Assembly (NCBI RefSeq): GCF_044324785.1
Contig: NZ_CP172127.1
Origin: Escherichia coli
Lineage (GTDB): Bacteria > Pseudomonadota > Gammaproteobacteria > Enterobacterales > Enterobacteriaceae
Length of the DNA stretch: 64,000 nt
Reading direction: 5' to 3' (one strand)
The translations under genes were made by a program, and so were the position numbers. The first letter of the stretch is position 1. Each line of letters starts with the position of its first letter. The notes below the pieces were generated by a model that saw only the letters and a program-made list of their open reading frames with translations, was not told the DNA's origin and made no database searches. Below, piece by piece: positions 32,442-40,868 of this stretch.

Positions 32442-35077
32442 TGTTTTTCCTCACACTCTTTTCCTTGCGGACAGTCATTTCCCGGCAGACGCGCGTTCTG
32501 CTCCAACCATGCCTGGAGATTATCGCCAAAGCGTAAACTGCGCCACAGCGTAAAAATATTCTCTTCATGATGGTAATTAAGGTTTACCGTACCGCTTTTA
32601 CCATCAACGCGACTGGTGCCTGTAATGTTGGCCTGCATGGTTAATAAACCGAGATTATCTAAGTTAATTTTTGTCGATGAACGGCTAATTTCCATATAGC
32701 GCAACCAGTTAATTGCTGAACCCGCGGTCATATTGTCTTTCACTACCGCATCTGCGGTGTCTTTATCCAGCCGCAAGGTCATTGGCCCGCTATTTGCCAG
32801 CCAACCATCTTTCACTATCCATTTTTCGTTGTTTAGCCATAACGGCAATGCACCACTAAATGCCCCGGACATGGCGAATTGTTTCGGATTGACGGCGCTA
32901 ACCAGTTCGCTGGATGAGAGATTATTCAGCCGCAACAGCGCCGGGTCATGTTGCGGCATACGTAATTGTTTCATCAGCACGTTACCGCCTAACACATCGA
33001 CGCTAACATCAGTCAACAGCAATGGTTCTTCTTCTGTCCACGGATAGCGCCCTTGCAAATCAGCCGTAATATTTTTCGCTGTCACCAGATTAATCACTTC
33101 GGCAATTCGCAACGTAACGGGGCCGCGAGTCCCCAGATGCCAGGCTCCATCGGCAAAACGGAAAGGCAGGACAAAATCGACACCGTTAACCTGATTATCT
33201 GGCATCCAGGCACTACCGCCTTTCAACACACCGTGCCCTCCCGCGCGGAATCCTTGTTCAGGCGCAGCAGAAAATGCGACCTGGGCATATAGTTCGCCAT
33301 CGCGTAAGTTCATCTTCCAGTCGGGTGGCACCAGCGGCTGGAATACGGTCAGTGATTGTTTAGGCCACCAGGCGTTACCGCGCAGACGAATACCGTCCCA
33401 GCGACCACTTACCCGAACCGGGCCAATCTCACCAGCATGTAAATCGCCTTTAAAAAGGAAATACGTCGGATCGCGTCCATCGACGCTAAATTTTAAGGTT
33501 GATGGCGGTAACACACTGCCGCCAGTGAACAGCGTTTGCCCGGCGTCCAGTGACAGCGCGCCGCTAAAGGAGGGATGCTGTGCGTCACGTACCCAGACGA
33601 CGGGCTTGTCGAGAATTAGTCGCGGCTTTTCTACCGTCATCGTACCGTATTGTAACTGGTCGAAACCGGTGGAGAGATCGGTCAGCGTAATCGTGCTGTC
33701 ATGCCACTCACCCTTTCCTGCGACGTCCCAGGTGGCATTCATCGGTGTAAAACTGCCTTTTCCCCAGTAGCGCCACTGCCAGCGGCCAGCGTCAGGGAGA
33801 AAATCATTCGCCAGTCCATCCATATGCAGCACGAAATCGCCCAGTTCATTTTCATGCGCCTGCAAAATGGCCTGCAAACGTCCGTCAACACCACGTTGGG
33901 TGACTTTTACACCCGCTAAAGGCCAGCGGATTTCATCGATGTCCAGCGAATCGATGACTCTTCCCTTCGAACGTAATAACGCGCCTGGCTCAAAGGCCAG
34001 CGTTGGGTCAGTCAGACTTCCGCTTAGCTGCGCAGGTAAGCGGGCATATAAAATGAGATCCGCCTGTTTCGCTTCACCGGTCAGCTGCAAAGGCAGCTGG
34101 CTGTTATCCATGCTTAATTTTCCAGGGCCAAAATTAAGCACCGCGTTGCCTTTACCCGCTTGCCCCTGGGTCAGCACACTAAGTCGTCCGCTGACCAGAG
34201 CGTTCTCGAGCCCTGCCTGCCAGTTGTCGACTTTGACACCCAGTCGGCCACTCAAAGGAAAACCTGCATACGGCCAACTCCAGCGACCATCGCTTACGGT
34301 CAATTGTTGACGAGTAATTTGCCACGGCAAATCGAGCAACGGATCGCCGTTATCCCGTGCCAGCACAATCAATTGCCCGCTATTTTCCTGCCAGTCCAGC
34401 TCTGCATCCACCAGTGACGGTTCCTGCGGCAAGTTAAACGTCGCAGTAGTATGCCCACTGACAGGAAGTCCATCCGGCACGAGCGGCATAGTAAATTCCC
34501 CCGCCAGTTTAACCGGCGGCTGATTTTCAAACGCGACGACATCCAGTTCGCTGACTGTAAGTTGTTGCCCTTTCAGCTGGCCTTGAAATTTAACTTTTTC
34601 GCCCTGATAACGCAGTTGCTGGATATCAGAGGTTAATGCGAGAGAGAGTTTTCCCTGCCATTCCTGCCAGGGAGAAAAAATCAGTTTATCGATATTGATC
34701 CAGGTGTTAGGCAGCATGGACTGCCACTGCGCGAGGGTTTTTGGAGCGGCTGGCGATTGCTCCGTCTGCGGCAATTTCGCCAGACAAGCAGAATCAAGTT
34801 CTACCGTGCCGACGTTCAATAACCAGCGGCTGGGATGTGAAAGGCTGGCGTTGGTGATATGCGCAAGCTGACAATCTCCCACCAGATAACGGAGATCGGG
34901 AATGATTAAACCTTTACGCGTAATGCGTGGGCTTTCATCTAATGCAATACGTGTCCCGAGCGGTAGCCAGATGCCCGCCAGCGTGGGAACCCACAAGCCG
35001 AGCGTCATCAGCAGCGTCAACGGCACAAGAATAATCAGTAATAACAGCGCGAGAACGGCTTTATATTTACCCAGCAT
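32438..35077 (-). CDS. ydbH: AsmA-like (TamB/YhdP-related) envelope protein YdbH
   Basis: 879-aa ORF with N-terminal TM anchor and long periplasmic region; synteny next to ldhA. Confidence 0.85.
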   Translation of the reverse strand: MLGKYKAVLALLLLIILVPLTLLMTLGLWVPTLAGIWLPLGTRIALDESPRITRKGLIIPDLRYLVGDCQLAHITNASLSHPSRWLLNVGTVELDSACLAKLPQTEQSPAAPKTLAQWQSMLPNTWINIDKLIFSPWQEWQGKLSLALTSDIQQLRYQGEKVKFQGQLKGQQLTVSELDVVAFENQPPVKLAGEFTMPLVPDGLPVSGHTTATFNLPQEPSLVDAELDWQENSGQLIVLARDNGDPLLDLPWQITRQQLTVSDGRWSWPYAGFPLSGRLGVKVDNWQAGLENALVSGRLSVLTQGQAGKGNAVLNFGPGKLSMDNSQLPLQLTGEAKQADLILYARLPAQLSGSLTDPTLAFEPGALLRSKGRVIDSLDIDEIRWPLAGVKVTQRGVDGRLQAILQAHENELGDFVLHMDGLANDFLPDAGRWQWRYWGKGSFTPMNATWDVAGKGEWHDSTITLTDLSTGFDQLQYGTMTVEKPRLILDKPVVWVRDAQHPSFSGALSLDAGQTLFTGGSVLPPSTLKFSVDGRDPTYFLFKGDLHAGEIGPVRVSGRWDGIRLRGNAWWPKQSLTVFQPLVPPDWKMNLRDGELYAQVAFSAAPEQGFRAGGHGVLKGGSAWMPDNQVNGVDFVLPFRFADGAWHLGTRGPVTLRIAEVINLVTAKNITADLQGRYPWTEEEPLLLTDVSVDVLGGNVLMKQLRMPQHDPALLRLNNLSSSELVSAVNPKQFAMSGAFSGALPLWLNNEKWIVKDGWLANSGPMTLRLDKDTADAVVKDNMTAGSAINWLRYMEISRSSTKINLDNLGLLTMQANITGTSRVDGKSGTVNLNYHHEENIFTLWRSLRFGDNLQAWLEQNARLPGNDCPQGKECEEKQ

Positions 35078-35284
35078 GGGTAGTTAATATCCTGATTTAG
35101 CGAAAAATTAAGCATTCAATACGGGTATTGTGGCATGTTTAACCGTTCAGTTGAAGGTTGCGCCTACACTAAGCATAGTTGTTGATGAATTTTTCAATAT
35201 CGCCATGGCTTTCAATTATATTTGAAATTTTGTAAAATATTTTTAGTAGCTTAAATGTGATTCAACATCACTGGAGAAAGTCTT

Positions 35285-36274
35285 ATGAAACTCGCCGTTT
35301 ATAGCACAAAACAGTACGACAAGAAGTACCTGCAACAGGTGAACGAGTCCTTTGGCTTTGAGCTGGAATTTTTTGACTTTCTGCTGACGGAAAAAACCGC
35401 TAAAACGGCCAATGGCTGCGAAGCGGTATGTATTTTCGTAAACGATGACGGCAGCCGCCCGGTGCTGGAAGAGCTGAAAAAGCACGGCGTTAAATATATC
35501 GCCCTGCGCTGTGCCGGTTTCAATAACGTCGACCTTGACGCGGCAAAAGAACTGGGGCTGAAAGTAGTCCGTGTTCCAGCCTATGATCCAGAAGCCGTTG
35601 CTGAACACGCCATCGGTATGATGATGACGCTGAACCGCCGTATTCATCGCGCGTATCAGCGTACTCGTGACGCCAACTTCTCTCTGGAAGGTCTGACCGG
35701 CTTTACTATGTATGGCAAAACGGCAGGCGTTATCGGTACCGGTAAAATCGGTGTGGCGATGCTGCGCATTCTGAAAGGTTTTGGTATGCGTCTGCTGGCG
35801 TTCGATCCGTATCCAAGTGCGGCGGCACTGGAACTCGGTGTGGAGTATGTCGATCTGCCAACCCTGTTCTCTGAATCAGACGTTATCTCTCTGCACTGCC
35901 CGCTGACACCGGAAAACTACCATCTGTTGAACGAAGCCGCCTTTGATCAGATGAAAAATGGCGTGATGATCGTCAATACCAGTCGCGGTGCATTGATTGA
36001 TTCTCAGGCGGCAATTGAAGCGCTGAAAAATCAGAAAATTGGTTCGTTGGGTATGGACGTGTATGAGAACGAACGCGATCTGTTCTTTGAAGACAAATCC
36101 AACGACGTGATCCAGGATGACGTATTCCGTCGTCTGTCTGCCTGCCACAACGTGCTGTTTACCGGGCACCAGGCATTCCTGACAGCAGAAGCACTGACCA
36201 GTATTTCTCAGACTACGCTGCAAAACTTAAGCAATCTGGAAAAAGGCGAAACCAGCCCGAACGAACTGGTTTAA
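35285..36274 (+). CDS. ldhA: fermentative D-lactate dehydrogenase
   Basis: 329-aa 2-hydroxyacid dehydrogenase, GxGxxG (GVIGTGKIG); begins MKLAVYSTKQYDKKYLQQVNE. Confidence 0.95.
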   Translation: MKLAVYSTKQYDKKYLQQVNESFGFELEFFDFLLTEKTAKTANGCEAVCIFVNDDGSRPVLEELKKHGVKYIALRCAGFNNVDLDAAKELGLKVVRVPAYDPEAVAEHAIGMMMTLNRRIHRAYQRTRDANFSLEGLTGFTMYGKTAGVIGTGKIGVAMLRILKGFGMRLLAFDPYPSAAALELGVEYVDLPTLFSESDVISLHCPLTPENYHLLNEAAFDQMKNGVMIVNTSRGALIDSQAAIEALKNQKIGSLGMDVYENERDLFFEDKSNDVIQDDVFRRLSACHNVLFTGHQAFLTAEALTSISQTTLQNLSNLEKGETSPNELV

Positions 36275-36281
36275 TCTTGCC

Positions 36282-36310
36282 GCTCCCCTGCATTCCAGGG
36301 GAGCTTATTC
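36282..36310 (+). terminator. rho-independent terminator of ldhA
   Basis: GCTCCCCTG-CATTCC-AGGGGAGC hairpin followed by TTATTC. Confidence 0.6.
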
Positions 36311-36384
36311 AGATAATCCCCAAAGACCTTTCATCCTCTATTCTTAAAATAGTCCTGAGTCAGAAACTGTAATTGAGAACCACA

Positions 36385-36807
36385 ATGAAGAAAGTAGCCG
36401 CGCTCGTTGCGCTAAGCCTGCTGATGGCGGGATGTGTAAGTAATGACAAAATTGCTGTAACCCCAGAACAGCTACAGCATCATCGCTTTGTGCTGGAAAG
36501 CGTAAACGGTAAGCCCGTGACCAGCGATAAAAATCCGCCAGAAATCAGCTTTGGTGAAAAGATGATGATTTCCGGCAGCATGTGTAACCGCTTTAGCGGT
36601 GAAGGCAAACTGTCTAATGGTGAACTGACAGCCAAAGGGCTGGCAATGACCCGTATGATGTGCGCTAACCCGCAGCTTAATGAACTCGATAACACCATTA
36701 GCGAAATGCTGAAAGAAGGTGCACAAGTGGATCTGACCGCGAACCAGTTAACGCTGGCGACCGCGAAACAGACATTAACTTATAAGCTGGCGGATTTAAT
36801 GAATTAA
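36385..36807 (+). CDS. hslJ: heat-shock lipoprotein HslJ
   Basis: 140 aa from MKKVAALVALSLLMAGC (lipobox); synteny. Confidence 0.85.
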   Translation: MKKVAALVALSLLMAGCVSNDKIAVTPEQLQHHRFVLESVNGKPVTSDKNPPEISFGEKMMISGSMCNRFSGEGKLSNGELTAKGLAMTRMMCANPQLNELDNTISEMLKEGAQVDLTANQLTLATAKQTLTYKLADLMN

Positions 36808-37070
36808 TAGCTGCCACAGCTCCCGGCGGCAAGTGACTGTTCGCTACAGCGTTTGCCGTTGGGTAATGCACACATCCCAATCGCCGTACCATCCAGTTGA
36901 CGGGCAACAGAAAGCGAACCGCCGATCATTGCACAATTTGCTTCTCCACTACTGGACATCGACGCTTTTAAACCTGGCGCTACGTGCGCCGCAGTCGCCT
37001 GTTGAACAGGTTCACTACTACACGCCGACAACAATAAAGCGGCACACCCTACCCAAAACGCTGCTCGCAT
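36804..37070 (-). CDS. ydbJ: DUF333 lipoprotein YdbJ
   Basis: 88-aa ORF with lipobox (LLSAC); stop codon overlaps hslJ stop by 3 nt (convergent). Confidence 0.75.
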   Translation of the reverse strand: MRAAFWVGCAALLLSACSSEPVQQATAAHVAPGLKASMSSSGEANCAMIGGSLSVARQLDGTAIGMCALPNGKRCSEQSLAAGSCGSY

Positions 37071-37343
37071 CTTTTCTTCCTCTGATCTTCAAGCCAAACG
37101 ACACCGCCATAAATAATAGGCAGCACAGAGGGCGACGTCGAGAGCTGTCCTGCGCGTTGCCCCGCATTTTTACTTTTTTATGGCTATTTTTTTGCCCTCT
37201 GTTTGATCAAAACATTCATTACGCTGATGTGGGGGACACAAAAGCGAAAATGCAGAAGAAAGCCATTTGCTAAAATTGAAAGATAACTACTGGGCGCGCA
37301 GCAATTTCGTGCGCCCCTCATTTGCGCAATGTAAGGGTGTCAT

Positions 37344-40300
37344 ATGATTACTATTGACGGTAATGGCGCGGTTGCTTCGGTGGCGTTTCGCACCAGTGAA
37401 GTTATCGCCATCTACCCTATTACCCCCAGTTCCACGATGGCAGAACAGGCTGATGCATGGGCCGGAAACGGCTTGAAAAACGTCTGGGGAGACACACCAC
37501 GCGTGGTTGAAATGCAGTCGGAAGCAGGTGCTATCGCTACCGTGCATGGCGCTTTGCAGACGGGTGCCCTTTCAACATCGTTTACGTCATCGCAGGGTTT
37601 GCTGCTGATGATCCCGACGCTGTACAAACTGGCAGGCGAACTCACACCGTTTGTCCTACATGTAGCGGCACGTACCGTTGCCACACATGCACTCTCTATT
37701 TTTGGCGATCATTCCGACGTCATGGCGGTGCGCCAGACGGGTTGCGCGATGTTGTGTGCGGCAAACGTCCAGGAAGCGCAAGACTTTGCTCTCATTTCGC
37801 ACATCGCGACGCTGAAAAGCCGCGTGCCATTTATTCATTTCTTTGATGGTTTCCGCACGTCCCACGAAATCAATAAAATTGTCCCGCTGGCCGATGACAC
37901 GATTCTTGATCTCATGCCGCAGGCCGAAATTGATGCTCATCGCGCCCGGGCACTCAACCCGGAACATCCGGTGATCCGCGGTACGTCCGCCAATCCTGAC
38001 ACTTATTTCCAGTCTCGCGAAGCCACCAACCCCTGGTACAACGCGGTCTATGACCATGTTGAGCAGGCGATGAATGATTTCGCTGCCGCGACAGGTCGTC
38101 AGTATCAGCCGTTTGAGTATTACGGGCATCCGCAAGCTGAACGAGTGATTATCCTGATGGGCTCAGCCATTGGCACCTGTGAAGAAGTGGTTGATGAATT
38201 GCTAACCCGTGGCGAAAAAGTCGGCGTGCTGAAAATTCGCCTGTACCGCCCCTTCTCAGCCAAACACTTGCTACAAGCTCTGCCGGGATCCGTACGCAGC
38301 GTGGCGGTACTGGACAGAACCAAAGAACCCGGTGCCCAGGCAGAACCGCTCTATCTGGATGTGATGACCGCACTGGCAGAAGCCTTTAATAATGGCGAGC
38401 GCGAAACCCTGCCCCGTGTCATTGGTGGGCGCTATGGTCTTTCATCCAAAGAATTTGGCCCGGACTGTGTACTGGCGGTATTTGCCGAGCTCAACGCGGC
38501 TAAACCGAAAGCGCGCTTTACGGTTGGTATTTACGATGATGTGACCAATCTGTCACTGCCGTTGCCGGAAAACACCCTGCCAAACTCGGCGAAACTTGAA
38601 GCCTTGTTTTATGGCCTTGGTAGTGATGGCAGCGTTTCCGCGACCAAAAACAATATCAAGATTATCGGTAATTCCACGCCGTGGTACGCACAGGGCTATT
38701 TTGTTTACGACTCCAAAAAGGCGGGCGGCCTGACGGTTTCTCACCTTCGCGTGAGCGAGCAGCCGATTCGTTCCGCTTATCTCATTTCCCAGGCTGATTT
38801 TGTTGGCTGCCACCAGTTGCAGTTTATCGATAAATATCAGATGGTTGAACGTTTAAAACCTAGCGGCATTTTCCTGCTCAACACGCCGTACAGCGCAGAT
38901 GAAGTGTGGTCGCGCTTGCCGCAGGAAGTTCAGGCCGTGTTAAACCAGAAAAAAGCGCGCTTCTATGTGATTAACGCGGCGAAAATCGCCCGCGAATGTG
39001 GCCTGGCGGCCCGTATTAATACCGTCATGCAGATGGCTTTTTTCCATCTGACGCAAATTCTGCCTGGCGATAGCGCCCTCGCAGAATTGCAGGGTGCGAT
39101 TGCCAAAAGTTACAGTAGCAAAGGTCAGGATCTGGTGGAGCGCAACTGGCAGGCTCTGGCGCTGGCGCGTGAATCCGTAGAAGAAGTTCCGTTGCAGCCG
39201 GTTAATCCGCACAGCGCCAATCGACCGCCTGTGGTTTCCGATGCCGCTCCTGATTTCGTGAAAACCGTTACCGCGGCGATGCTCGCCGGGCTTGGTGATG
39301 CCCTCCCCGTTTCGGCGCTGCCGCCAGACGGCACCTGGCCGATGGGCACCACGCGCTGGGAAAAACGCAATATCGCCGAAGAGATCCCCATCTGGAAAGA
39401 GGAACTCTGTACCCAATGTAACCACTGCGTCGCCGCTTGCCCACACTCAGCTATTCGCGCAAAAGTGGTACCGCCTGAAGCGATGGAAAACGCCCCTGCC
39501 AGCCTGCATTCGCTGGATGTGAAATCGCGTGATATGCGCGGGCAGAAATATGTCTTGCAGGTGGCACCGGAAGATTGCACCGGCTGTAACCTGTGCGTCG
39601 AAGTTTGCCCGGCGAAAGACCGTCAGAATCCAGAGATTAAAGCCATCAATATGATGTCGCGCCTGGAACATGTCGAAGAAGAGAAAATCAATTACGATTT
39701 CTTCCTCAACCTGCCAGAAATCGACCGTAGCAAACTGGAACGTATTGATATTCGTACATCGCAGCTGATTACACCGCTGTTTGAATATTCAGGTGCTTGC
39801 TCCGGTTGTGGCGAGACGCCGTATATTAAATTGCTGACTCAGCTCTATGGCGACCGGATGTTGATCGCTAACGCCACGGGCTGTTCTTCAATTTATGGCG
39901 GTAACCTGCCCTCTACACCGTATACTACCGATGCCAACGGTCGAGGACCGGCATGGGCGAACTCGCTGTTTGAAGATAACGCCGAATTTGGCCTTGGTTT
40001 CCGCCTGACGGTCGATCAACACCGTGTCCGCGTGCTGCGTCTGCTGGATCAATTTGCCGATAAAATCCCGGCTGAATTACTAACTGCGTTGAAATCAGAC
40101 GCCACGCCAGAGGTTCGTCGTGAACAGGTTGCAGCTTTACGCCAGCAACTCAAAGATGTTGCCGAAGCACATGAACTGCTACGTGACGCAGATGCGCTGG
40201 TGGAAAAATCAATCTGGCTGATTGGCGGCGACGGCTGGGCTTACGATATCGGCTTTGGCGGTTTGGATCATGTATTGAGTTTGACAGAAAACGTCAACAT

Positions 40301-40868
40301 TCTGGTGCTGGATACGCAATGCTATTCCAACACCGGTGGTCAGGCGTCGAAAGCGACACCGCTGGGTGCAGTAACTAAGTTCGGCGAGCACGGCAAACGT
40401 AAAGCGCGTAAAGATCTTGGCGTCAGTATGATGATGTACGGTCATGTTTATGTGGCGCAGATTTCTCTCGGCGCGCAGCTCAACCAGACGGTGAAAGCGA
40501 TTCAGGAAGCGGAAGCGTATCCGGGGCCATCGCTGATCATCGCTTATAGCCCCTGTGAAGAGCATGGTTACGATCTGGCACTCAGTCACGACCAGATGCG
40601 CCAACTCACTGCTACCGGCTTCTGGCCGCTATATCGCTTTGATCCGCGTCGTGCCGATGAAGGCAAACTGCCGCTGGCGCTGGATTCACGCCCGCCGTCA
40701 GAAGCACTGGAAGAAACGTTACTTCATGAGCAGCGTTTCCGTCGTCTGAATTCGCTGCAGCCAGAAGTGGCAGAACAGTTATGGAAAGATGCTGCAGCTG
40801 ATTTGCAAAAACGCTATGACTTCCTGGCACAAATGGCCGGAAAAGCGGAAAAAAGCAACACCGATTAA
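37344..40868 (+). CDS. ydbK: pyruvate:flavodoxin/ferredoxin oxidoreductase (PFOR)
   Basis: 1174-aa ORF with two 4Fe-4S ferredoxin motifs (CTQCNHCVAACP, CTGCNLCVEVCP) and TPP-binding region (GGDGWAYDIGFGG). Confidence 0.95.
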   Translation: MITIDGNGAVASVAFRTSEVIAIYPITPSSTMAEQADAWAGNGLKNVWGDTPRVVEMQSEAGAIATVHGALQTGALSTSFTSSQGLLLMIPTLYKLAGELTPFVLHVAARTVATHALSIFGDHSDVMAVRQTGCAMLCAANVQEAQDFALISHIATLKSRVPFIHFFDGFRTSHEINKIVPLADDTILDLMPQAEIDAHRARALNPEHPVIRGTSANPDTYFQSREATNPWYNAVYDHVEQAMNDFAAATGRQYQPFEYYGHPQAERVIILMGSAIGTCEEVVDELLTRGEKVGVLKIRLYRPFSAKHLLQALPGSVRSVAVLDRTKEPGAQAEPLYLDVMTALAEAFNNGERETLPRVIGGRYGLSSKEFGPDCVLAVFAELNAAKPKARFTVGIYDDVTNLSLPLPENTLPNSAKLEALFYGLGSDGSVSATKNNIKIIGNSTPWYAQGYFVYDSKKAGGLTVSHLRVSEQPIRSAYLISQADFVGCHQLQFIDKYQMVERLKPSGIFLLNTPYSADEVWSRLPQEVQAVLNQKKARFYVINAAKIARECGLAARINTVMQMAFFHLTQILPGDSALAELQGAIAKSYSSKGQDLVERNWQALALARESVEEVPLQPVNPHSANRPPVVSDAAPDFVKTVTAAMLAGLGDALPVSALPPDGTWPMGTTRWEKRNIAEEIPIWKEELCTQCNHCVAACPHSAIRAKVVPPEAMENAPASLHSLDVKSRDMRGQKYVLQVAPEDCTGCNLCVEVCPAKDRQNPEIKAINMMSRLEHVEEEKINYDFFLNLPEIDRSKLERIDIRTSQLITPLFEYSGACSGCGETPYIKLLTQLYGDRMLIANATGCSSIYGGNLPSTPYTTDANGRGPAWANSLFEDNAEFGLGFRLTVDQHRVRVLRLLDQFADKIPAELLTALKSDATPEVRREQVAALRQQLKDVAEAHELLRDADALVEKSIWLIGGDGWAYDIGFGGLDHVLSLTENVNILVLDTQCYSNTGGQASKATPLGAVTKFGEHGKRKARKDLGVSMMMYGHVYVAQISLGAQLNQTVKAIQEAEAYPGPSLIIAYSPCEEHGYDLALSHDQMRQLTATGFWPLYRFDPRRADEGKLPLALDSRPPSEALEETLLHEQRFRRLNSLQPEVAEQLWKDAAADLQKRYDFLAQMAGKAEKSNTD

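What the first reader, a model, noticed from the sequence alone, without database searches (positions are those of the whole stretch)
36802..36808. Convergent stop-codon overlap of hslJ and ydbJ
Seen: hslJ TAA (36805-36807) and ydbJ TAA on the opposite strand (36804-36806) share bases, so the two lipoprotein mRNAs must overlap at their 3' ends. Inference: possible mutual antisense interference or shared termination.
Basis: seen in the sequence. Interest (0 to 1): 0.12.

Follow-up and report, generated by a model that had tools for sequence, protein, structure and literature searches.

The report
Ordinary four-base overlap of two gene ends
Two small E. coli envelope-protein genes on opposite strands, hslJ and ydbJ, end in the shared palindrome TTAA; this is a common, cost-free and already annotated way for facing genes to abut, and its one real consequence, that the two mRNAs overlap at their tails, has already been reported.

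Summary
The + strand at 36804-36807 reads TTAA. The hslJ stop TAA is at 36805-36807 and the ydbJ stop TAA is on the opposite strand at 36806-36804. The stops share 2 bases and the coding sequences overlap by 4.

It is not unusual. RefSeq annotates the same overlap. [CT]TA[AG] is the published modal class of convergent overlaps, and E. coli has 58-75 convergent overlapping pairs. All four tetramers are synonymous for both proteins.

Across 46 Enterobacteriaceae species loci the genes are always tail-to-tail, but the distance drifts: -7, -4, 0 to +13, and +45 to +124 where repeats have inserted. Salmonella has +32 and Cronobacter 0.

The transcripts must overlap. ydbJ-hslJ is already listed as a convergent "excludon" of MG1655 (NAR 2025).

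I found no shared bidirectional intrinsic terminator. A hairpin just after the hslJ stop is stable only on the hslJ strand and has no U-tract. One published Term-seq study calls no 3' end in this region. The same study reports bicyclomycin-sensitive (Rho) termination regions on both strands.

The best reading is a neutral, compact junction. Each transcript runs antisense into its partner and is ended mainly by Rho. Regulatory interference is untested. Low interest; already known.

The parts
36385..36807 (+). hslJ CDS (140 aa, META-domain lipoprotein), stop TAA at 36805-36807 followed in frame by TAG at 36808-36810
   Evidence: RefSeq annotation
36804..37070 (-). ydbJ CDS (88 aa, DUF333 lipoprotein), stop TAA at 36806-36804
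   Evidence: RefSeq annotation; homologues at 75-99% identity across Enterobacteriaceae
36804..36807 (.). TTAA palindrome: the 4-nt CDS overlap. 36804 is the third base of the hslJ Asn codon and of the ydbJ stop. 36807 is the third base of the hslJ stop and of the ydbJ Tyr codon.
   Evidence: variants CTAG and TTAG in other genera leave both proteins unchanged
36809..36863 (+). Two hairpins in the hslJ-direction RNA directly after its stop: 36809-36821 (5 bp) and 36822-36863 (18 pairs, 4 of them G.U). They lie inside the last 18 codons of ydbJ and no U-tract follows. Candidate 3' stabiliser for the hslJ mRNA, not a canonical terminator.
   Evidence: -30 kcal/mol, z -2.92 on the + strand against -23.5, z -0.14 on the - strand; covariation inconclusive
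36801..36832 (-). Weak terminator-like site for ydbJ: a 7-pair hairpin at 36832..36811 made of ydbJ's own last codons, then the A/U-rich tail CUAUUAAUUC across the stop
   Evidence: 3 sites found in the region against 2.1 expected from shuffles, so not significant on its own
36988..37128 (+). C-rich, G-poor stretch of the hslJ-direction RNA (C/G up to 3.2), antisense to the ydbJ 5' end and leader: a plausible Rho loading (rut) region
37130..37195 (+). Weak hairpin (37130-37163) followed by U-runs in the ydbJ-ydbK intergenic region. Possible backstop for hslJ-direction readthrough before ydbK. The E. albertii version has a better stem.
   Evidence: z 0.15, not significant; L003 hit at +343
36239..36272 (-). 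Terminator-like hairpin AAACCAGUUCGUUCGGGCUGGUUU plus CGCCUUUUUC on the ydbJ-direction strand, inside the last codons of ldhA, about 565 nt past the ydbJ stop. Its tail end corresponds to MG1655 1441889 (+), the coordinate of a bicyclomycin-sensitive termination region.
   Evidence: (z -3.55)
37113..37141 (-). Sigma-70-like promoter match upstream of ydbJ (TCGACG, 17 nt spacer, TATTAT)
   Evidence: 1 found against 1.5 expected from shuffles; a consensus match only

Best explanation
This is an ordinary compact tail-to-tail junction between two independently transcribed genes. It is not a dedicated regulatory device.

In the phase in which hslJ meets ydbJ, the reverse complement of ydbJ's stop (TTA) plus the next base forms a stop for hslJ. 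That base is always a purine, because ydbJ ends in Tyr (TAY). So -4 is the furthest hslJ can run. The overlap costs neither protein anything, because all four tetramers [CT]TA[AG] are synonymous.

No intergenic DNA is left, so neither gene has its own terminator between the stops. Each transcript continues as untranslated antisense RNA into the partner gene. There it is ended mainly by Rho, with weak hairpin backstops further on. These lie near 37130-37195 for the hslJ direction and at 36272-36239 for the ydbJ direction. The hslJ RNA is probably trimmed back to the stable hairpin at 36822-36863.

Shown here: the geometry, the synonymy, the conserved adjacency with drifting spacing, and the lack of a canonical terminator. 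Shown in published data: overlap of the transcripts, and bicyclomycin-sensitive termination regions on both strands. Inferred: where exactly each RNA ends, and that interference is small at the low expression of both genes.
For: Geometry and annotation.

Class frequency: 4 bp is the modal overlap, the four tetramers are named, and E. coli has 58 convergent overlaps of which only 21 carry a predicted rho-independent terminator on either gene (PMC2174442). Another count gives 75 convergent overlapping pairs in E. coli (PMC4161906).

Spacing drifts among 46 species loci: -7 in 3, -4 in 13 (TTAA 9, CTAG 3, TTAG 1), 0 to +13 in 26, and +45 to +124 in 4. Salmonella has +32 and Cronobacter 0.

No canonical terminator follows either stop in the window or consistently in 26 related loci.

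No curated Term-seq 3' end lies between MG1655 1440800 and 1441999 in three growth conditions (PMC7815308).

The same paper lists Rho termination regions at 1441889 (+) and 1441748 (-). At 1441889 (+) the upstream/downstream reads are 80/17 untreated and 77/69 with bicyclomycin, giving a score of 4.2 and p = 1.5e-6. At 1441748 (-) they are 64/72 and 61/176, giving a score of 2.56 and p = 3.8e-5. The coordinate mapping was verified.

A C-rich, G-poor stretch lies downstream of the hslJ stop.

The pair is listed as a convergent excludon (PMC12288877).
Against: The gene pair is tail-to-tail in every Enterobacteriaceae locus examined, and 42 of 46 have 13 nt or less between the stops. This could reflect selection for overlapping transcription rather than mere deletion bias.

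The hairpin after the hslJ stop is strand-specific (z -2.9 against -0.1) and largely retained (82% of cells paired). This hints at a function on the hslJ RNA.

The Rho data have 800-nt resolution and come from one culture. The 1441748 (-) region sits upstream of hslJ, so it may report ldhA readthrough rather than the hslJ 3' end.

No direct 3'-end data exist for either gene in the material I could reach.
Confidence: 0.68

Rival explanations
1. Functional convergent excludon. The obligatory 3' overlap, extended by readthrough into the partner gene, causes transcriptional interference and RNase III cleavage of the RNA duplex. As a result HslJ and YdbJ are expressed in a mutually exclusive way.
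For: ydbJ-hslJ is in the published MG1655 excludome. The tail-to-tail adjacency is conserved in 46/46 species loci plus Salmonella and Cronobacter. ydbJ-direction transcription appears to cross all of hslJ before a bicyclomycin-sensitive stop near the ldhA 3' end. Both strands give similar read counts in one culture.
Against: With overlapping CDSs, the ExcludonFinder criterion is met trivially whenever both genes are transcribed. No pair-specific reciprocal expression, dsRNA or RNase III data exist, and p19 validation was not feasible for convergent pairs. Spacing varies from -7 to +124, and repeats or an IS1 insert at the junction without loss of either gene's neighbourhood. Both genes are weakly expressed, so polymerase collisions and duplexes should be rare (inference).
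Confidence: 0.18
2. Shared bidirectional terminator. The hairpin at 36809-36863 serves both genes, possibly helped by head-on RNA polymerase collisions as proposed for convergent gene pairs.
For: The hairpin lies within 2 nt of both stops and can form on either strand. On the ydbJ strand it is followed by the A/U-rich CUAUUAAUUC, which the scan picked up. Collision-driven termination at stem-loops between convergent genes has been described (bioRxiv 10.1101/2022.10.23.513370).
Against: No U-tract follows the hairpin on the hslJ strand, and the - strand fold is no better than shuffles (z -0.14). The hairpin lies inside translated ydbJ codons. The scan hit rate equals the shuffle expectation. 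No Term-seq 3' end was called in the region. Covariation is no better than coding conservation explains. Species with 45-124 nt inserts keep the genes.
Confidence: 0.1
3. Annotation artefact. One ORF end is miscalled or ydbJ is not a real gene, so there is no true overlap.
For: ydbJ is short (88 aa), has no NCBIfam model, and was added late to the K-12 annotation (locus tag b4529).
Against: The DUF333 match reaches residue 83 of 88. YdbJ is 75-99% identical over its full length, with the same C-terminus, in 46 species, which is more conserved than HslJ. The HslJ equivalog model covers residues 1-140. Stop codons are unambiguous, unlike start codons.
Confidence: 0.02

Closest known systems
4-bp convergent stop-stop overlaps of prokaryotic genes ([CT]TA[AG]); Lillo & Krakauer 2007 (PMC2174442)
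   Same: Opposite-strand convergent genes, exactly 4 nt shared, and a tetramer (TTAA) that is one of the four named. It falls among the 58-75 convergent overlapping pairs counted in E. coli.
   Different: Nothing differs; it is a textbook member.
Convergent excludons (ExcludonFinder, Sanmartin et al., NAR 2025, PMC12288877)
   Same: Convergent neighbours whose transcription units overlap at the 3' ends. This exact pair is in their Table 1.
   Different: The overlap starts in the coding sequences themselves rather than in 3' UTRs. For this pair there is no evidence of reciprocal expression or RNase III processing.
Bidirectional intrinsic terminators between convergent genes (Ju et al. 2019 SEnd-seq, as cited in PMC7815308 and bioRxiv 10.1101/2022.10.23.513370)
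   Same: A GC-rich stem-loop placed at the boundary of two convergent genes.
   Different: There is no A-tract/U-tract symmetry, the stem is stable on one strand only, it lies inside ydbJ coding sequence, and no mapped 3' end was found.
Rho-dependent termination of untranslated or antisense RNA, with 3' trimming back to a protective stem-loop (Dar & Sorek 2018, PMC6061677; Adams et al. 2021, PMC7815308)
   Same: The RNA past each stop codon is untranslated and antisense to a gene. Bicyclomycin-sensitive regions are reported on both strands. A C-rich, G-poor tract lies downstream of hslJ, and a stable hairpin sits right after the hslJ stop.
   Different: Resolution is 800 nt. The exact ends and the trimming are inferred, not observed.

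Membership tests
4-bp convergent stop-stop gene overlap | Two protein-coding genes on opposite strands, converging | tested here: met
4-bp convergent stop-stop gene overlap | Overlap of exactly 4 nt formed by CTAA, TTAA, CTAG or TTAG | tested here: met
   TTAA at 36804-36807; class definition in PMC2174442
Convergent excludon | Transcription units of the two neighbours overlap | not testable with these tools
   Not measured here. It is a logical necessity given the CDS overlap, and the pair is listed in the MG1655 excludome from RNA-seq (PMC12288877).
Convergent excludon | Reciprocal (mutually exclusive) expression of the two genes | not tested
   No pair-specific data found. Both strands give similar read counts in one bulk culture, which does not settle the question at the single-cell level.
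Convergent excludon | RNase III-dependent processing of the sense/antisense duplex | not testable with these tools
   p19 dsRNA validation was not feasible for convergent pairs.
Bidirectional intrinsic terminator | GC-rich stem-loop at the gene boundary that is stable on both strands | tested here: not met
   + strand -30 kcal/mol, z -2.92; - strand -23.5 kcal/mol, z -0.14
Bidirectional intrinsic terminator | U-tract 3' of the stem on both strands | tested here: not met
   The + strand stem is followed by UAAUGCACAC. The - strand has only CUAUUAAUUC.
Bidirectional intrinsic terminator | Mapped RNA 3' ends at the element | tested here: inconclusive
   No Term-seq 3' end between MG1655 1440800 and 1441999 in PMC7815308. 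The genes are weakly expressed, so absence is weak evidence. Other datasets could not be reached.
Rho-dependent termination | Readthrough increases when Rho is inhibited by bicyclomycin | tested here: inconclusive
   Published regions at 1441889 (+), score 4.2, and 1441748 (-), score 2.56. The windows are 800 nt and there was one culture. The second region is upstream of hslJ.
Rho-dependent termination | Untranslated, C-rich, G-poor RNA of about 80 nt upstream of the stop region | tested here: met
   hslJ direction: C/G up to 3.2 at +180..+320. ydbJ direction is weaker, 1.5-1.8 at +160..+260.
   HslJ LLMAG-C17 and YdbJ LLLSA-C17, read. The MG1655 record names HslJ a lipoprotein. No dedicated predictor was run.

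The most novel reading that the evidence does not exclude
The persistent tail-to-tail packing of hslJ and ydbJ across Enterobacteriaceae is selected. Under this reading the strand-specific hairpin encoded within ydbJ's last 18 codons is the 3'-end-forming or stabilising element of the hslJ mRNA. The two transcripts would form a genuine excludon that makes the CysB-repressed lipoprotein HslJ and the DUF333 lipoprotein YdbJ mutually exclusive.
Probability: 0.1. Interest if true: 0.35.

Novelty: already known. Interest (0 to 1): 0.08.

Why it matters
It matters little. At most the locus is a convenient, naturally varied test case for what happens to termination and expression when convergent genes have no intergenic DNA. 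The variants available are spacing from -7 to +124, an IS1 insertion in one E. coli strain, and repeat inserts in Klebsiella, Raoultella and Enterobacter. The general phenomenon, the class of overlap and this specific pair are all already in the literature and in the annotation.

Tried and rejected
1. Rfam scan of 35000-38500 at E <= 1 found no RNA family.

2. Direct 3'-end data.
- The supplements of PMC7815308 have no Term-seq end in the region. They gave only two low-resolution Rho regions.
- PMC6131387 (SMRT-Cappable-seq) and PMC12207403 (TERMITe) do not mention the genes.
- The supplements of PMC9023263, PMC6061677, PMC8848933 and PMC12288877 are not held.
- My guessed PMC ids for Ju et al. 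2019 (SEnd-seq) and for Thomason et al. 2015 (TSS map) returned no held paper.

3. Covariation test of the post-stop hairpin on 46 species. 82.2% of cells are paired against 81.4% in shuffles, 3 pairs have double changes, and 12-14 of 500 shuffles do as well. This is inside the tool's stated false-positive range and is confounded by ydbJ coding constraint, so it is inconclusive.

4. A functional link through gene fusion. I recalled DUF333-META fusions but could not confirm them. There were none among 242 close homologues, none among 10 long DUF333 representatives scanned with Pfam, and none in a phmmer search of HslJ against all 268 retrieved proteins. The only hits in that search were three chimeras that look like assembly or amplification artefacts.

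5. A scan for a conserved canonical terminator downstream of either stop in 26 loci found nothing consistent.

6. The weak hairpin plus U-runs at 37130-37195 folds no better than shuffles (z 0.15). I keep it only as a candidate.

Full report
**What is there**

The window is E. coli chromosome. Locally it carries:
- ydbH, 32438-35077, - strand
- ldhA, 35285-36274, + strand
- hslJ, 36385-36807, + strand
- ydbJ, 36804-37070, - strand
- ydbK/nifJ, 37344-40868, + strand

The + strand reads ...GAT TTA ATG AAT TAA TAG... across the junction. The hslJ stop is TAA at 36805-36807. The ydbJ stop is TAA on the other strand at 36806-36804. The stops share two bases, and the CDSs share the palindrome TTAA (36804-36807).

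Both genes are real.
- HslJ hits META (PF03724, 1.9e-25) and the NCBIfam HslJ equivalog over residues 1-140 (2.2e-78).
- YdbJ hits DUF333 (PF03891, 1.1e-13) up to residue 83 of 88.
- Both carry lipobox-type N-termini, read.

RefSeq annotates the same 4-nt overlap in C600 and MG1655. The locus is present in 5412 of 5426 complete E. coli genomes. A 71-nt stretch around the junction is at least 99% identical to the window in 5118 of them. The junction and the hairpin next to it are base-for-base identical to MG1655, with no indels between 36230 and 37343.

**Is it more than chance?**

No. The reverse complement of TAA or TAG is TTA or CTA, and shifted by one base and followed by a purine it reads TAA or TAG. 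ydbJ ends in Tyr (TAY), so the next base is always a purine. In this phase hslJ therefore cannot read past ydbJ's stop, and -4 is the built-in limit.

Position 36804 is the third base of both the hslJ Asn codon and the ydbJ stop. Position 36807 is the third base of both the hslJ stop and the ydbJ Tyr codon. All four tetramers [CT]TA[AG] therefore leave both proteins unchanged, so the overlap is free. Three of the four occur in relatives: TTAA, CTAG and TTAG.

The literature already describes this.
- 4 bp is the modal overlap length.
- The four convergent tetramers are named.
- E. coli has 58 convergent overlaps, of which 19 have a predicted rho-independent terminator for one gene and 2 for both (PMC2174442).
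- Another count gives 75 convergent overlapping pairs (PMC4161906).

**Comparative picture**

A scan of one genome per species returned 47 loci. One of them (L048) is an E. coli contaminant in a Bacillales assembly, which leaves 46. In all 46, hslJ and ydbJ are convergent neighbours. The distance between CDS ends is:

| Distance | Loci | Notes |
|---|---|---|
| -7 | 3 | |
| -4 | 13 | four Escherichia species, the K. oxytoca group, some Raoultella, one Enterobacter |
| 0 to +13 | 26 | Citrobacter mostly +13 |
| +45 to +124 | 4 | GC-rich palindromic or ERIC-like repeats have inserted |

Salmonella has +32 and Cronobacter 0, with the same ydbK-ydbJ-hslJ-ldhA-ydbH synteny. A 58%-identical DUF333 homologue elsewhere has no META neighbour. 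In one E. coli strain an IS1 sits exactly at the junction.

So the adjacency and the tightness are conserved, but the 4-nt overlap itself is one drifting state among several. YdbJ (75-99% identity) is more conserved than HslJ (51-99%).

**Termination**

Nothing lies between the stops, so any terminator must sit in the partner gene or beyond it.

*hslJ strand.* The RNA folds directly after the stop into a 5-bp hairpin (36809-36821) and an 18-pair hairpin (36822-36863).
- The fold is -30 kcal/mol with z -2.92. The same DNA on the ydbJ strand gives -23.5 kcal/mol with z -0.14, because four G.U pairs become C.A mismatches.
- No U-tract follows the hairpins.
- Across 46 species 82% of pair cells are kept, but covariation does not exceed what ydbJ's coding conservation explains.

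*ydbJ strand.* A 7-pair hairpin made of ydbJ's own last codons is followed by CUAUUAAUUC. This was a scan hit, but the scan found no more sites than shuffles give.

*Related loci.* A homemade scan of 26 related loci found no conserved canonical terminator after either stop.

*Further downstream.*
- The hslJ-direction RNA has a C-rich, G-poor stretch (C/G up to 3.2) at about 36988-37128.
- It also has a weak hairpin with U-runs at 37130-37195 (not significant).
- The ydbJ-direction RNA meets the complement of the ldhA terminator and then a strong hairpin plus U-tract at 36272-36239, inside ldhA's last codons (z -3.55).

**Published transcript data**

The conversion is MG1655 coordinate = 1478128 minus window coordinate.

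Adams et al. 2021 (PMC7815308) list no curated Term-seq 3' end between 1440800 and 1441999 in three growth conditions. They do list two bicyclomycin-sensitive Rho termination regions:

| Coordinate (strand) | Position | Untreated reads (up/down) | Bicyclomycin reads (up/down) | Score | p |
|---|---|---|---|---|---|
| 1441889 (+) | ydbJ direction, antisense to ldhA | 80/17 | 77/69 | 4.2 | 1.5e-6 |
| 1441748 (-) | hslJ direction, 5 nt upstream of the hslJ ATG | 64/72 | 61/176 | 2.56 | 3.8e-5 |

- 1441889 maps to window 36239, the last base of the 36248-36239 tail and the base just after the U-run of the - strand hairpin.
- The 800-nt upstream window of that region covers ydbJ and all of antisense hslJ.

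The resolution is 800 nt and there was one culture. The data therefore show only that both strands are transcribed at similar low levels, and that Rho limits how far that transcription runs.

ExcludonFinder (PMC12288877) lists ydbJ-hslJ among 165 convergent excludons present in at least 50% of 58 MG1655 RNA-seq samples. With overlapping CDSs that criterion is met whenever both genes are transcribed.

The overlap of the two mRNAs is necessary and has been reported. A shared terminator is not supported. Mutual interference is a published class-level hypothesis that is untested for this pair.

My best explanation, at 0.68, is a neutral, compact junction with mainly Rho-dependent, diffuse termination inside and beyond the partner gene. 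The rivals are a functional excludon (0.18), a shared bidirectional terminator (0.10) and an annotation artefact (0.02).

**Other checks**

- Rfam finds nothing in the region.
- I could not confirm a remembered DUF333-META fusion.
- As background, hslJ is CysB-repressed and has been linked to novobiocin susceptibility, although a recent deletion study saw no effect (PMC9769978).

**Novelty and interest**

This is already known, both as an annotation and as a class, and the pair is already named in an excludon catalogue. Interest is low.

Noticed in passing
L053 (NZ_CM151390.1, E. coli 11A20CPO008), locus 1732-2509: An IS1A element is inserted exactly at the hslJ/ydbJ junction. hslJ is annotated as a pseudogene missing its C-terminus, while ydbJ is intact. 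This is a natural variant that separates the two genes.
   Followed up: partly
L029:3421-3544; L024:3424-3509; L028:3424-3497; L033:3400-3444: In four species the junction holds inserts of 45-124 nt. The L029 insert resembles an ERIC/IRU element, judged by eye from ...AAGTAAGTGACTG...GCAGCTCGAAGTATGCCGGGTATAG. The others are GC-rich palindromes of REP type.
   Followed up: no
window 36239-36272 (- strand), inside the last codons of ldhA: There is a strong terminator-like hairpin plus U-tract on the strand antisense to ldhA (z -3.55). The end of its tail equals MG1655 1441889 (+), the coordinate of a bicyclomycin-sensitive region in PMC7815308. In MG1655 the stem has one mismatch (window 36254 A against T).
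   Followed up: partly
proteins P0084, P0136, P0168 (Logan/ENA short contigs): Three predicted proteins are HslJ/YdbJ chimeras joined at short shared motifs (SGE, C, ATA), although the genes lie on opposite strands. They are most likely inverted amplification or assembly chimeras, not natural fusions.
   Followed up: partly
L048 (NZ_VLXZ01000060.1, 413 nt, coverage 1.3x); L029; L015: A contig in an Alkalicoccobacillus porphyridii assembly is 98-100% identical at protein level to the E. coli hslJ/ydbJ junction, which points to contamination. Records labelled Chryseobacterium sp. 18061 and uncultured Raoultella carry Enterobacteriaceae or Citrobacter-like versions of the locus, which points to mislabelling.
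   Followed up: no
window 36300-37150, search: Five of the 5417 matches to the hslJ-ydbJ region are on records classed as plasmids, and some genomes have two copies. I did not inspect these.
   Followed up: no
window 36805-36810: hslJ ends with tandem in-frame stops TAA TAG. The second stop overlaps ydbJ's Tyr and Ser codons.
   Followed up: no
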